Shown here in pieces: positions 31,357 through 41,963 of a DNA stretch of 64,000 bases. Below the pieces are notes generated by a model. The model had not been told where the DNA came from and ran no database searches. It saw nothing but the letters and a program-made list of their open reading frames with translations. The DNA is from Candidatus Aminicenantes bacterium. GTDB taxonomy: Bacteria; Acidobacteriota; Aminicenantia; Aminicenantales; Aminicenantaceae. The number at the start of each line of letters is the position of its first letter. Position 1 is the first letter of the stretch. The stretch is taken from NCBI GenBank assembly GCA_046483285.1, contig JAWODN010000119.1, positions 6,015-70,014 of the forward strand. Reading direction: 5' to 3'. Position numbers and translations under genes: made by a program.

Positions 31357-31387
31357 ATCCGGCCCGGCTGGAACATCACCGTTCTTT

Positions 31388-31420
31388 ATGAATTCGTCAT
31401 GTGTATAATACACCACGAAC
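31388..31420. repeat. left copy of a 33-bp (extendable to about 70 bp) inverted repeat; partner at 38123-38155
   Basis: 'atgaattcgtcatgtgtataatacaccacgaac' matches the reverse complement of 38123-38155 at 31 of 33 positions. Similarity continues with gaps for about 20 nt on each side. Confidence 0.7.
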
Positions 31421-31469
31421 CATGAAAATGATCCCAATGTCATTGCCGGAGCGGAGCACTTTTGAGTCT

Positions 31470-31830
31470 GTCATTCCGGGGCACGCCGTGCCTTTGAGTG
31501 TGTCATCCCGCGGTGCGAAGCACCGAGGGATCCCTTACTGGTTCGTTTTGGCGGTGGGTTCTGCTTTCACGAGGCAGGAAGGGATTGCCGCGGCTTGCTG
31601 GCGCAAGCCTCGCAATGACAAGGGGGCATGTCATTCCGGGGCACGCCGTGCCTTTGAGTGTGTCATCCCGCGGTGCGAAGCACCGAGGGATCCCTTACTT
31701 CTTCGTCTTGGCGGTTGGCCCCGCTTTCACGAGGCAGGAAGGGATTGCCGCGGCTTGCTGGCGCAAGCCTCGCAATGACAAAGTGGAATGTCGTCCCGGG
31801 GAGCGAAGCGATGAGGGATCTGTGAGTGCC
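31470..31830. repeat. 160-bp tandem repeat (2 full units plus a degenerate third), hairpin-rich
   Basis: Unit 1 spans 31470-31629 and unit 2 spans 31630-31789, with more than 90% identity. A partial degenerate unit follows to about 31830. Each unit starts 'gtcattccgggg' and ends 'cctcgcaatgacaa', and contains several perfect hairpins (ggcacg/cgtgcc; cggtgc-gaa-gcaccg; ggcttgc/gcaagcc). Confidence 0.8.
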
Positions 31831-31871
31831 TCGGCTAATGAGTCAGAACCGACTCATCAGACGAAGCCGAA

Positions 31872-31928
31872 TAAGATCCTCACGGCCTGCTTCGCAGGCC
31901 TCAGGATGACAGCGGAGCTGTCATTTTC
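31872..31928 (+). repeat. 57-bp double-hairpin element (copy A), terminator-like
   Basis: Identical 57 of 57 to 41907-41963. It contains a ggcctgc-ttc-gcaggcc hairpin nested in atcct/aggat, then gacagc-gga-gctgtc followed by ATTTTC. Both copies lie just 3' of plus-strand genes. Confidence 0.75.
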
Positions 31929-32011
31929 TAAGGTATAGGTCAGGCTTGCCTGGCCTGTTCACGGGCCGCGATCGCAATTTTTTTATGAATAAGCCAGGGG
32001 AATGAATCAGG

Positions 32012-32824
32012 TTGGATAAGGAGAAAACAATGCCGGAATTACCCGATGTGGAAGTTTTCAGACAATATATGGAGGCCACATCTCTGCACAAGAAAATAAC
32101 AGGCGTGGAGGTTGAAAATGAACGGGTCCTCCAGGATATCACTCCCTCCGGATTAGGTCAAAAGCTCAAGGGGCGCCTGTTCGAAAGAACCAGACGGCAT
32201 GGAAAACATATGTTCGCCTGTGCGGATGGGGAATTCTGGGTGATGTTCCATTTCGGCATGACCGGCTTTTTCAAGTATTTCAAGAATGAAGAAGACAAAC
32301 CGCCTCACGCCCGGGTGTTGTTTCATTTTGATAATGGATTTTGTCTGGCTTATGACAGCCAGAGGATGTTGGGGAAAATCAGGATCGTGGAAGACGCGGG
32401 GGATTTTATCCGGCAGAACGAATTAGGTCAAGACGCCCTGGGTTTGTCCTGGGACGCTTTTCAAAACCGGATGCATGGCCGGCGCGGCACGGTGAAAACC
32501 GCCTTGATGAATCAGAGCCTTATGGCCGGCATCGGAAATATTTACTCGGACGAGATTTTATTTCAAACCGGAATCCATCCTAAAACCCAAATGAACAATC
32601 TGAATGAAGGCCTTCTTAAAAAGATGCATGAGCACATGCAGAGGGTTTTGAAAACAGCCGTTGACAAAAAAGCGGATCCGGAGGAATTCCCGGATGATTT
32701 TCTGGTTCCACACCGGGGAAGCGGAAATAAATGCCCCCGCTGCGGCGGAGAGATAAAAAAAGTCAAAGTGAACAACCGGGGAACCTATTTTTGCCCGCAA
32801 TGCCAGCCGTCTCCTCATAGTTGA
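32012..32824 (+). CDS. formamidopyrimidine-DNA glycosylase / endonuclease VIII family (Fpg/Nei)
   Basis: 270 aa with the N-terminal catalytic 'MPELPDVE', an H2TH region and a C-terminal zinc finger 'CPRCGGEI...CPQC'. Confidence 0.85.
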   Translation: MDKEKTMPELPDVEVFRQYMEATSLHKKITGVEVENERVLQDITPSGLGQKLKGRLFERTRRHGKHMFACADGEFWVMFHFGMTGFFKYFKNEEDKPPHARVLFHFDNGFCLAYDSQRMLGKIRIVEDAGDFIRQNELGQDALGLSWDAFQNRMHGRRGTVKTALMNQSLMAGIGNIYSDEILFQTGIHPKTQMNNLNEGLLKKMHEHMQRVLKTAVDKKADPEEFPDDFLVPHRGSGNKCPRCGGEIKKVKVNNRGTYFCPQCQPSPHS

Positions 32825-37981: not shown

Positions 37982-38122
37982 TCCGTTTATGAAAAAACGG
38001 CGGTGATAATTCACATAGTCTCCATGCTGCACACAAAGGAACCGTGGCCGGCTCAGCCTTCGTGTGTGCCGGCTTATCCATCATCCTGCTCCCATAGCCA
38101 CACTTCAGAAGTCATTTTCATC

Positions 38123-38155
38123 GTTCGTGGTGCATTATACACATGATGAATTCAT
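38123..38155. repeat. right copy of the inverted repeat paired with 31388-31420
   Basis: 'gttcgtggtgcattatacacatgatgaattcat' is the reverse complement of 31388-31420 with 2 mismatches. Confidence 0.7.
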
Positions 38156-38396
38156 TTAAAAATGTGTTCCATCTCAGCATCGAAGCTGTTTTCCTCTTCT
38201 AAGTCAAATATAACCCAAACCTTATTCATGGCTTCATCAGCGTTCGCCGGATGCTCCATCCGGAATGAATTCGATTTTCCTCCCAATCAGGTGTGTTCGC
38301 TTCCGAAAAAAATCCCAGTTTCCGGCTTTGCGGAACGTTTTCTTGCGAGGGAAGAATAAATCCTGTCTTTTCCTTCCTGCTCCTGGGAAAAGAAGT

Positions 38397-38412: not shown

Positions 38413-38571
38413 TTTATGTTTAATAATAAACCTGAAGTATTCAAGGGCCGAGATTGCCGCAGATGCGAGGCGCATGACTAAAAACCATGCTTACTGCTGA
38501 TAAGAAAAAGATTGCGCAAACATGGTAATTTTTTTATGAATAGTTCAGGCTAAATAAAAAGGAGGAAAATC

Positions 38572-38772: not shown

Positions 38773-39054
38773 CCACGATTCTTCATTCAGCCTGACCTAT
38801 TCACAACCCGGGATGGCCGCAGATGCCGGAGTTGCGGCGAGGAAGCCGCGGCCCTTCACTGCGACAAGCGGCAACTCCGGCATATGCGGTGAGTTCCGGC
38901 CTTTCGAACCATTTTTTCATGAATTTACCATATAGGGAAGCACACCGCCTGGTTTTTTTGAAGCGCGTTTGGGAAAAGGCGAGCCGCGGATACCCTGGAT
39001 TCACATCTAAGACCTGAGCCGGAATATGCATTTTCTGATTGAAAAGGAGATAAA

Positions 39055-41906: not shown

Positions 41907-41963
41907 TAAGATCCTCACGGCCTGCTTCGCAGGCCTCAGGATGACAGCGGAGCTGTCATTTTC
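41907..41963 (+). repeat. 57-bp double-hairpin element (copy B)
   Basis: Identical to 31872-31928. It begins 12 nt after the UPF0182 stop. Confidence 0.75.

What the first reader, a model, noticed from the sequence alone, without database searches (positions are those of the whole stretch)
31430..31930. Repeat-dense intergenic region: 160-bp tandem units built from nested perfect hairpins
Downstream of ligA lie two near-identical 160-bp units and a degenerate third. Each begins 'gtcattccgggg' and ends 'cctcgcaatgacaa' (mutually complementary termini). Each contains three or more perfect stem-loops, for example cggtgc-GAA-gcaccg.

The region is not coding and is not a CRISPR array (no short constant repeat with unique spacers). 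It could be a MITE/REP-like element array, a structured ncRNA, or a transcription/recombination barrier between the BER cassette and fpg.
Basis: seen in the sequence. Interest (0 to 1): 0.55.

Follow-up and report, generated by a model that had tools for sequence, protein, structure and literature searches.

The report
Array of Ssn-type hairpin repeats
The repeat-dense stretch between ligA and fpg is a lineage-specific insertion of small oriented DNA hairpin repeats from a family that, in many other bacteria, flanks a small GIY-YIG nuclease gene homologous to Neisseria SsnA, so it is a new example of a recently described kind of element and not a new kind of thing.

Summary
Window 31469-31788 is two 160-nt tandem units (94% identical) in a 673-nt ligA-fpg spacer. 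The building block is an oriented 32-38-nt hairpin, TGTCAT + 3 nt + inner stem-loop + complementary 3 nt + ATC. It occurs six times here and once more at 41910-41946. Hairpins sit in convergent pairs around a spacer hairpin, giving 120-nt three-hairpin modules.

Relatives keeping DUF72-PolX-LigA-Fpg synteny have only 10-78 nt at this site and no motif, so the array is an insertion. Its free stem positions co-vary. In 11 fetched loci and a Planktothrix plasmid it flanks a ~95-aa GIY-YIG gene; the one tested (L030) is 51.5% identical to the gonococcal SsnA ortholog.

SsnA is a published ssDNA nuclease that cuts beside NTS hairpins (Chenal 2025). The array is therefore best read as Ssn-related motifs in a NIME/BIME-like mosaic.

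Caveats:
- The hairpins fail the published SRM search string.

Verdict: new member of a known kind, moderate interest.

The parts
31438..31468 (+). A: degenerate or truncated hairpin motif (TGTCATTGCCGGAGCGGAGCACTTTTGAGTC)
   Evidence: Read from the sequence. It has the TGTCATTGC head. The covariance model does not detect it. Similar truncated TGTCAT half-sites occur next to the ssn gene in Planktothrix.
31469..31500 (+). B1: truncated motif with its own GGCAC-GCC-GTGCC hairpin, ending TTTGAGTG instead of the closing stem + ATC
   Evidence: It is not detected by the CM. This variant was not found in any fetched locus.
31501..31532 (+). C1: full 32-nt hairpin motif TGTCAT-CCC-GCGGTGC-GAA-GCACCGA-GGG-ATC
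   Evidence: CM R1 50.2 bits, E 4e-10. It is one base from a Thermoanaerobaculia copy in L063.
31533..31582 (.). S1: spacer hairpin between the convergent motifs C1 and D1
   Evidence: Inverted repeat I9 and DNA fold. It holds 7 of the 10 differences between the two 160-nt units.
31583..31620 (-). D1: 38-nt long-form motif TGTCAT-TGC-GAGGCTTGC-GCCA-GCAAGCCGCG-GCA-ATC
   Evidence: CM 30.2 bits, E 3e-5. It has the same outer frame as the motifs flanking ssn homologs in L105, L136, L142, L145, L152 and L171.
31629..31660 (+). B2: copy of B1
   Evidence: 100% identical to B1.
31661..31692 (+). C2: copy of C1
   Evidence: CM 50.2 bits; identical to C1.
31693..31742 (.). S2: spacer hairpin of the second unit
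   Evidence: I10; fold.
31743..31780 (-). D2: copy of D1
   Evidence: CM 30.2 bits; identical to D1.
31789..31820 (+). E: 32-nt motif with a TGTCGT head (TGTCGTCCCGGGGAGCGAAGCGATGAGGGATC)
   Evidence: CM 40 bits, E 1e-7.
31821..31874 (.). S3: spacer hairpin between E and F, unrelated in sequence to S1/S2
   Evidence: I8; fold.
31875..31911 (-). F: 37-nt long-form motif TGTCAT-CCT-GAGGCCTGC-GAA-GCAGGCCGTG-AGG-ATC
   Evidence: CM 31.6 bits, E 2e-5.
31919..31928 (+). G: head-only remnant TGTCATTTTC, head-to-head with F across 7 nt
   Evidence: Sequence. It is copied together with F at the second locus.
41907..41963 (.). Second locus: 57-nt exact copy of F + G (motif F' at 41910-41946 on the - strand), 12 nt after the stop of the UPF0182 gene
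   Evidence: blastn 100% over 57 nt; CM 31.6 bits; sequence; flanking genes.
31382..31431 (+). Promoter-like box with TATAAT at 31404-31409, directly upstream of the array. Not part of the hairpin family. It may transcribe the array and fpg.
   Evidence: 94% match to the reverse complement of 38112-38143. A TATAAT also lies in the short ligA-fpg spacer of relative L092. The promoter scan tool did not score it.

Best explanation
The region is a mosaic array of Ssn-related hairpin motifs, the extended-hairpin relatives of the Neisseria NTS/dRS3 repeat. It was inserted into the normally tiny ligA-fpg spacer of a Candidatus Aminicenantes genome.

Anatomy (shown):
- The unit is an oriented 32-38-nt element: a conserved single-stranded head TGTC, a stem that starts AT + 3 nt, a conserved G-A/G-A internal loop, a variable inner stem capped mostly by GAA (the GCGAAGC mini-hairpin), and a conserved C after the closing stem.
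- Two units face each other across a spacer hairpin. Together they form a 120-nt module bounded by TGTCAT...ATGACA.
- One such module plus a truncated unit was duplicated in tandem, giving the 160-nt period.
- A third module and head-only remnants complete the array.

Mechanism (inferred from the family):
- When either strand becomes single-stranded (replication, repair, incoming transforming DNA), the hairpins extrude.
- A small single-domain GIY-YIG nuclease of the Ssn family, encoded elsewhere in the genome, would then bind them and nick the ssDNA a few bases 5' of TGTCAT.
- Motifs on both strands make either strand a substrate.
- The same protein-motif pair is the likely engine that seeded and multiplied these modules without target-site duplication. 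The modules would then be the non-autonomous counterpart of the motif-ssn-motif unit.

At this locus the array is dispensable cargo. It separates fpg from ligA and probably lies in the fpg leader.
For: SHOWN
1. Motif and array anatomy.
2. Insertion: relatives with Fpg 69-73% identical keep DUF72-PolX-LigA-Fpg, but their ligA-fpg gap is 78 nt (L092, L093) or 10 nt (L096, L097) against 673 nt here. The CM finds no hits in 68 kb of their loci.
3. Dispersal in this genome: an exact 57-nt copy lies at 41907-41963.
5. Hairpin kept by compensatory change. In the short form, both unconstrained stem pairs are Watson-Crick in 71/80 copies (22/30 unique) with 10 or more different dinucleotides, Y6-R28 pairs in 79/80, and the unpaired A11 and G25-A26 are conserved. 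In the long form, the outer triplet is complementary in 75/83.
6. Constraint or homogenisation here: all 10 differences between the 160-nt units fall in the 58 nt of spacer and junction, and none in the 102 nt of motifs (P about 4e-5).
7. Link to Ssn:
- GIY-YIG-only ORFs of about 95 aa lie next to the motif in 11 of 198 fetched loci.
- CM hits lie on both sides of the gene in 10 of the 11.
- This is the top recurrent protein family within 1 kb of the motif, and no transposase family recurs.
- One of these ORFs (L030) is 51.5% identical (E 1e-23) to a 94-aa N. gonorrhoeae ORF embedded in 16 NTS copies, i.e. the SsnA ortholog.
- An annotated GIY-YIG gene on a Planktothrix agardhii plasmid shows the same layout, with tandem convergent modules and truncated heads.
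8. Convergent pairs are the rule: among neighbours within 150 nt there are 122 convergent, 14 divergent and 18 tandem pairs.
9. There are no target-site duplications around 118 modules.

FROM THE LITERATURE (PMC11893778)
- SsnA binds NTS only as ssDNA and cuts a few nt upstream.
- The C after the palindrome is critical for binding, and the 3 nt before the palindrome are critical for cutting.
- The loop can be removed or extended without loss of activity.
- The NTS-ssnA-NTS layout resembles an insertion sequence.
Against: - No Ssn/GIY-YIG gene lies in the 64-kb window (regex; tblastn with five Ssn queries). The rest of the genome could not be reached, so the cognate nuclease of this array is unobserved.
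- The hairpins do not match the published SRM search string, the NTS or dRS3.
- Outer stems are mixed within this one array (CCC, TGC, CCT, TCC), whereas the arrays next to ssn genes elsewhere are uniform. That could mean more than one nuclease, or decay.
- Only two loci with the motif occur in 64 kb, so this is not a repeat-rich genome region.
- Cleavage, mobility and any phenotype are inferred, not shown.
Confidence: 0.7

Rival explanations
1. Fossil array. The motifs are relics of a past Ssn-driven expansion in a lineage that has since lost the nuclease, so today they are inert structured DNA.
For: No ssn gene lies in 64 kb. Truncated copies A, B and G and the TGTCGT head of E suggest decay. 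Outer stems are mixed (for contrast). Only two loci occur in the window.
Against: The motif parts of the two 160-nt units are 100% identical while spacers diverged. F+G is copied exactly 10 kb away. Both points argue for recent activity, homogenisation or constraint. Truncated heads also sit beside an intact ssn gene in Planktothrix.
Confidence: 0.15
2. RNA-level element. The hairpins act in the transcript as a structured fpg leader, an mRNA stabiliser, or an attenuator or terminator between ligA and fpg, as E. coli REP elements can.
For: A TATAAT box lies just upstream of the array, and a similar one precedes fpg in a relative. The array would therefore probably be transcribed. The folding energy is strong. 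Covariation alone cannot tell RNA from ssDNA.
Against: Motifs alternate between strands, and convergent pairs are the rule across genomes regardless of gene direction. There is no Rfam family and no + strand intrinsic terminator. Relatives do without the array. The associated nuclease does not act on RNA (PMC11893778).
Confidence: 0.08
3. REP/BIME elements mobilised by a REP-associated tyrosine transposase (RAYT, IS200/IS605-like).
For: The general look is the same: short extragenic palindromes in inverted pairs forming mosaics, with no target-site duplication.
Against: The conserved head is GTCAT, not the GT[AG]G of RAYT-type REPs (own knowledge). The only protein family recurrently adjacent to the motif is the GIY-YIG one, and no transposase cluster appeared.
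Confidence: 0.04
4. Classical MITE: a deletion derivative of a DDE transposon whose terminal inverted repeats begin TGTCAT.
For: The 120-nt modules are bounded by inverted termini (I12, I14) and are multi-copy.
Against: No target-site duplication of 2-8 nt occurs around 118 modules beyond the shuffled control. The 'TIRs' are themselves hairpins with compensatory changes. No transposase is associated. Single motifs and head-only copies are common.
Confidence: 0.03

Closest known systems
NTS / Ssn-related motifs (SRM) with the SsnA GIY-YIG ssDNA nuclease (Chenal et al., Nat Commun 2025, PMC11893778)
   Same: Both are oriented motifs with a GTCAT head, a semi-palindrome beginning AT(T/C)CC or ATTGC, and a conserved C after the closing stem. 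Both are multi-copy, intergenic and clustered on both strands. Both flank a ~95-aa single-domain GIY-YIG gene on both sides. The adjacent protein tested (L030) is 51.5% identical to the gonococcal SsnA ortholog.
   Different: The hairpin here is two-tiered and 5-10 nt longer, with an inner stem of variable length and a G-A/G-A internal loop. It fails the published SRM string, NTS and dRS3. The host is an Aminicenantes MAG. The cognate nuclease gene was not seen in the window. No biochemistry exists for this variant.
Neisseria intergenic mosaic elements (NIME: 50-150-bp repeat blocks bounded by dRS3 inverted repeats; own knowledge, dRS3 as described in PMC11893778)
   Same: Both are intergenic mosaics in which variable 50-nt spacers are bounded by inverted copies of a short hairpin repeat. 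The gonococcal ssnA locus shows alternating + and - NTS copies, mostly 35-120 nt apart, much like this array.
   Different: The motif sequence and length differ. Spacers here are themselves hairpins, so that each module folds as a three-hairpin junction.
REP/BIME elements and RAYT transposases of Enterobacteria and Pseudomonas
   Same: Both are extragenic palindromes in inverted pairs with tandem amplification and no target-site duplication. In both cases a domesticated nuclease gene is flanked by its own repeats.
   Different: The protein is a different enzyme class (GIY-YIG versus HUH/Y1). The conserved head also differs (GTCAT versus GTAG).
MITEs such as the Neisseria Correia element
   Same: Both are ~100-150-bp non-coding units with inverted termini, dispersed in intergenic DNA.
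   Different: There is no target-site duplication, the termini are autonomous hairpins, and no DDE transposase partner is evident.
d(GCGAAGC) hyperstable DNA mini-hairpin (own knowledge)
   Same: Motifs C, E and F carry exactly GCGAAGC at the tip of the inner stem. C-GAA-G caps every short-form copy, but the search pattern itself required it. In the long form, where the loop was left free, GAA is common but not universal.
   Different: That hairpin is a physical-chemistry motif, not a genetic element. Its presence only argues that the tip is optimised for folding as DNA.

Membership tests
Ssn-related motif (SRM/NTS) family, Chenal 2025 | Oriented motif: conserved GTCAT-type head, semi-palindrome, conserved C immediately 3' of the palindrome | tested here: met
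   All six full copies read TGTC[A/G]T + stem ... stem + ATC. The same frame is invariant in 38 aligned copies from other genomes (T1 G2 T3 C4 ... A30 T31 C32).
Ssn-related motif (SRM/NTS) family, Chenal 2025 | Matches the published degenerate search string HGTCWYN(0-2)YYVSBRHN(0-5)WNVSBRGN(0-2)RNCYNB (or NTS with 1 mismatch) | tested here: not met
   There are 0 matches in the window and 0 NTS matches at up to 3 mismatches. The string finds 9 sites in the Neisseria control but none of the motifs flanking the Ssn homologs in L030, L047, L057, L078, L105, L145, L152 and L171. The string is therefore too narrow for this hairpin length.
Ssn-related motif (SRM/NTS) family, Chenal 2025 | Spatial association of the motif with an ssnA homolog (tblastn E<1e-10 to Neisseria SsnA), typically on both sides of the gene | tested here: met
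   This was met for the motif variant in other genomes: 11 loci plus the Planktothrix plasmid. Homology to gonococcal SsnA was shown for the L030 ORF (E 1e-23). The GIY-YIG ORFs of the other loci match L030 or its L029/L047/L078 relatives at E 1e-22 or better.
Ssn-related motif (SRM/NTS) family, Chenal 2025 | An ssnA homolog in the same genome as the repeats | tested here: inconclusive
   None is present in the 64-kb window. The rest of the MAG could not be fetched. The Ssn protein search returned 6177 homologs, but none of the top 120 is labelled Aminicenantes.
Ssn-related motif (SRM/NTS) family, Chenal 2025 | Multi-copy and over-represented in the genome, mostly intergenic | tested here: inconclusive
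   There are seven full copies in two intergenic loci within 64 kb, against 0.47 expected. A genome-wide count was not possible.
Ssn-related motif (SRM/NTS) family, Chenal 2025 | Bound and cut as ssDNA, strand-specifically, by the cognate Ssn | not testable with these tools
   This needs purified protein and oligonucleotides.
Neisseria dRS3 / NIME | ATTCCC-N8-GGGAAT repeat bounding the mosaic blocks | tested here: not met
   There is one 1-mismatch hit inside the PolX gene, no more than chance. The architecture is alike, but the sequence family is not the same.
REP/BIME with RAYT | Y1 (HUH) transposase gene flanked by the repeats, and a GT[AG]G head | tested here: not met
   The head is GTCAT. 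Unbiased clustering of ORFs within 1 kb of the motif in 198 loci gave the GIY-YIG family first and no transposase family. RAYT was not searched for with a dedicated profile.
MITE (DDE transposon derivative) | Target-site duplication flanking the terminal inverted repeats | tested here: not met
   Around 118 convergent modules, TSDs of 2-8 nt are no more frequent than in shuffled partners. None is present at the modules in the window.
CRISPR array | Short constant direct repeats separated by unique spacers of similar length | tested here: not met
   The repeats are inverted pairs of differing sequence, and whole units including 'spacers' are duplicated.
Any Rfam RNA family | Covariance-model match at the gathering score | tested here: not met
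   There is no hit at gathering score. The only hit under the E-value threshold is a chance-level eukaryotic scaRNA, E 0.61.

The most novel reading that the evidence does not exclude
The 70-120-nt convergent-pair modules are non-autonomous mobile elements that a single-domain GIY-YIG ssDNA nuclease copies or moves through a single-strand, TSD-free pathway. This would be a GIY-YIG counterpart of the RAYT/REP and IS200/IS605 systems and would form the most widespread REP-like family outside Proteobacteria. The published SRM definition would then miss a large extended-hairpin branch of the family, in which the inner stem is free to vary and the nuclease reads only the outer frame.
Probability: 0.2. 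Interest if true: 0.7.

Novelty: new member of a known kind. Interest (0 to 1): 0.35.

Why it matters
The result explains a conspicuous repeat block as part of a system described only in 2025, and it extends that system in three modest ways.
- The Ssn-type hairpin family reaches Aminicenantes, other Acidobacteriota, Chloroflexota, Gemmatimonadota, Nitrospirota, Planctomycetota and a cyanobacterial plasmid.
- In these lineages the hairpin is an extended two-tier form that the published search string does not detect.
- The usual unit of this form is a convergent pair without target-site duplication.

For annotation, it flags a common source of spurious ORFs and broken assemblies in metagenomes. 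For biology, it gives defined substrates (motifs C, D and F) and an isolate (Planktothrix agardhii) in which to test whether Ssn nucleases read only the outer frame of the hairpin, and whether they multiply these modules.

Tried and rejected
1. Exact look-ups of Fpg failed, so the source contig beyond the window could not be read. A Na+/H+ exchanger look-up only found a 4-kb Logan contig.
2. A concatenated six-frame translation of the array against the 5.8-billion protein set found nothing at E<=1e-3. It was meant to fish out other copies through spurious ORFs. It is useful only as evidence that the region is not coding.
3. The exact 37-nt motif F has no match in JGI metagenomes.
None of the 78 loci matches the window beyond the motif.
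5. The Ssn protein search did not surface an Aminicenantes homolog among the top 120 hits.
6. My first gap-free hairpin scanner found only C1 and C2, because D and F have asymmetric internal loops. It was replaced by a covariance model.
7. NCBIfam has no model for these GIY-YIG proteins. The closest solved structure is a weak UPF0213 match.
8. The paper's supplementary tables are not held.
9. A literature search for the motif strings found only primer coincidences apart from the Ssn paper.
10. The B-type 'TTTGAGT' ending was not found in any other locus, so A and B are treated as local truncated derivatives.
11. Fixed head-to-head spacing (7-8 nt here) is not general.
12. CRISPR, riboswitch or sRNA, intrinsic terminator, RAYT-REP and DDE-MITE readings were considered and set aside for the reasons given under the rival explanations.

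Full report
OBSERVATION
The window between the LigA stop (31356) and the Fpg start (32030) is 673 nt of non-coding DNA; Pfam confirms both genes. Tandem Repeats Finder reports a 160-nt period over 31469-31801 (2.1 copies, 93% matches). The repeat finder aligns 31469-31628 with 31629-31788 at 94% identity. Both strands fold far better than shuffles as single-stranded DNA (z -6.5 and -7.7). There is no Rfam match at gathering score or at E<=1. A six-frame translation has no relative among 5.8 billion proteins.

ANATOMY
The real building block is not the 160-mer. It is an oriented hairpin of 32-38 nt: TGTC, then a stem opening with AT plus three bases, a short internal loop, an inner stem capped by GAA (or GCCA), the return strand, and a C.

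The full copies are:
- C1 31501-31532 (+)
- D1 31583-31620 (-)
- C2 31661-31692 (+)
- D2 31743-31780 (-)
- E 31789-31820 (+)
- F 31875-31911 (-)

I built a covariance model from 38 copies and ran it without filters over the whole window. It scores these six at 30-50 bits. It also finds one further site, 41910-41946 (-), at 31.6 bits. The next best hit is 13 bits. An independent structural pattern returns the same seven sites, against 0.47 expected.

A, B1, B2 and G are truncated, head-bearing derivatives. C faces D, and E faces F, across 50-54-nt spacers that are themselves hairpins. Each 120-123-nt module is therefore predicted to fold into three hairpins closed by TGTCAT/ATGACA. The 160-nt period is one module plus B plus an 8-nt junction, duplicated once.

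The ten differences between the two units all lie in the spacer or junction. The 102 nt of motifs are identical (P about 4e-5 under uniform drift). The site at 41907-41963 is an exact 57-nt copy of F plus G, placed 12 nt after the stop of a UPF0182 gene.

ORIGIN OF THE WINDOW AND THE EMPTY SITE
The Fpg protein is 100% identical to a protein named as coming from a Candidatus Aminicenantes MAG, on a 74-kb contig. Relatives whose Fpg is 69-73% identical keep the order DUF72, PolX, LigA, Fpg. Their ligA-fpg gap is only 78 nt (L092, L093) or 10 nt (L096, L097). The model finds nothing in 68 kb of their loci. The array is therefore a lineage-specific insertion into a compact repair-gene cluster and is not needed by it.

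THE FAMILY ELSEWHERE
- A loosely specified pattern gave 11 viral contigs, 10 of them TGTCATTCTGAGGA[AG]CGAAG[CT]G[AC]CGA[AG]GAATC, the five close variants in alignment A1.
The 78 loci come from Acidobacteriota, Thermoanaerobaculia, Chloroflexota, Gemmatimonadota, Gammaproteobacteria, Thermodesulfovibrio and Planctomycetia MAGs.
- The stem positions were left as N, so their complementarity is a fair test. In the short form, both free pairs are Watson-Crick in 71 of 80 copies (22 of 30 distinct sequences, at least ten dinucleotide types), Y6 pairs with R28 in 79 of 80, and the unpaired A11 and G25-A26 are conserved.
- In the long form, the outer triplets are complementary in 75 of 83 distinct sequences.
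- Within one genome the outer frame is constant while the inner stem-loop ranges from nothing to about 20 extra bases.
- Among neighbours within 150 nt there are 122 convergent, 14 divergent and 18 tandem pairs. The C-D and E-F modules are thus the standard arrangement, at the long end of the size range.
- No target-site duplication flanks 118 modules.

THE PROTEIN PARTNER
A full-text search for the motif head led to Chenal et al. 2025 (PMC11893778). That paper makes these points:
- The 28-nt Neisseria repeat NTS is CGTCATTCCCGCGMAVGCGGGAATCYRG.
- NTS and broader 'Ssn-related motifs' flank ssnA, a 94-aa single-domain GIY-YIG gene.
- SsnA binds the hairpin only as ssDNA and cuts a few bases upstream.
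- It does not act on dsDNA or RNA.
- It tolerates removal or extension of the loop.
- It lowers transformation by NTS-bearing DNA.

In my fetched loci, ORFs of about 95 aa with only a GIY-YIG domain lie next to the motif in 11 of 198 loci. Model hits lie on both sides of the gene in 10 of the 11, in one case (L057) as a 133-nt periodic array. When all ORFs within 1 kb of the motif are clustered, this is the largest family across loci, and no transposase family appears.

One of these proteins (L030) is 51.5% identical (E 1e-23) to a 94-aa ORF in a gonococcal chromosome. That chromosome is filed as a plasmid in PLSDB, and the ORF sits among 16 NTS copies in 3.3 kb. This meets the paper's homology criterion. 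An annotated GIY-YIG gene on a Planktothrix agardhii plasmid shows the same picture, including tandem convergent modules and runs of truncated TGTCATTCTGAG heads that resemble A, B and G here.

WHAT DOES NOT FIT
- The published SRM search string finds the Neisseria control sites. It finds none of the motifs in the window, and none of those flanking the Ssn homologs in eight of my loci. NTS and dRS3 patterns are also absent. The variant is the same in architecture but outside the published definition.
- More importantly, no ssn gene lies in the 64 kb. I could not reach the rest of the genome, and a family search did not surface an Aminicenantes homolog.
- The array also mixes outer stems (CCC, TGC, CCT, TCC), unlike the uniform arrays beside ssn genes elsewhere.

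INTERPRETATION
Identity as a member of this hairpin-repeat family, and its status as an insertion, are shown. That the hairpins work as ssDNA binding and cutting sites for an Ssn nuclease encoded elsewhere, and that this pair multiplied the modules, is inferred from the family-wide association and the published biochemistry of the Neisseria, N. elongata, N. wadsworthii and Wolbachia enzymes.

The GCGAAGC tips in C, E and F are the classic hyperstable DNA mini-hairpin (own knowledge). Together with the two-strand, convergent layout, they favour a DNA-level over an RNA-level role. A fossil array in a genome that lost the nuclease is the main alternative. RNA-level side effects on fpg expression are possible, because a TATAAT box lies just upstream of the array.

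VERDICT
This is a real, non-random feature and a new member of a known kind: an Ssn-type hairpin repeat mosaic, akin to Neisseria NIMEs and to REP/BIMEs. It is of moderate interest because it documents an extended hairpin form, broad phyletic spread and a TSD-free convergent module that the original description does not cover.

Noticed in passing
window 41907-41963: An exact 57-nt copy of motif F plus the head-only remnant G lies 12 nt after the stop of a UPF0182 gene and upstream of a GH15 gene. It is the only other copy of the family in the window.
   Followed up: yes
window 31382-31431 (+) and 38108-38160 (-): A ~50-nt promoter-like box (..ATGAATTC.TCATGTGTATAAT.CACCACGAAC.ATGAAAATGA) is present twice in inverted orientation. 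One copy sits directly upstream of the hairpin array. The other points into a ~130-nt stretch with a hairpin and a possible terminator near 37985-38010, which might be a small RNA. The consensus promoter scan did not score it.
   Followed up: partly
window 31979-31990, 38527-38538, 38912-38925: A T-rich TTTTTTATGAAT box recurs upstream of fpg and of two small ORFs. It may be a lineage-specific promoter or UP-like element.
   Followed up: no
window 38816-38890: A long near-perfect inverted repeat (CCGCAGATGCCGGAGTTGC ... GCAACTCCGGCATATGCGG) follows a 66-aa ORF. It gave only chance-level Miscellaneous Rfam hits and is unrelated to the TGTCAT family.
   Followed up: partly
L091 (NZ_CP119140.1 1880760-1884056): This PLSDB 'plasmid' record is a 2.17-Mb N. 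gonorrhoeae chromosome. It carries the 94-aa ssnA ortholog among 16 NTS copies and was used here as a positive control.
   Followed up: yes
L218 (Planktothrix agardhii plasmid p1, NZ_LR882964.1 17350-20613): The Ssn-family GIY-YIG gene and its hairpin arrays sit between an MmeI-type restriction-modification gene and DISARM drmA, that is, inside a defence island.
   Followed up: no
L057 7076-7500: There is a regular 133-nt periodic array of convergent motif pairs (four periods) directly beside an Ssn homolog in an Acidobacteriota MAG. It parallels the 160-nt tandem seen here.
   Followed up: partly
L029 2108-2135 and 3250-4356: One Gammaproteobacteria MAG contig carries both a canonical NTS-like site (CGTCATTCCCGCGTAAGCGGGAATCCAG) and the extended motifs around its Ssn gene. 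The open frame of the gene runs on into a motif (C-terminal ...CHSERSEESRSERDPS), a typical source of odd protein tails.
   Followed up: no
one search hit list: Many Ssn homologs sit on contigs shorter than 2 kb. This fits their flanking repeats breaking short-read assemblies.
   Followed up: no
window 32030-32824: The exact-sequence look-up finds no record for Fpg, although a 100% identical NCBI protein (P0001) is in the homology database. The source contig is thus indexed in one resource but not in the other.
   Followed up: partly
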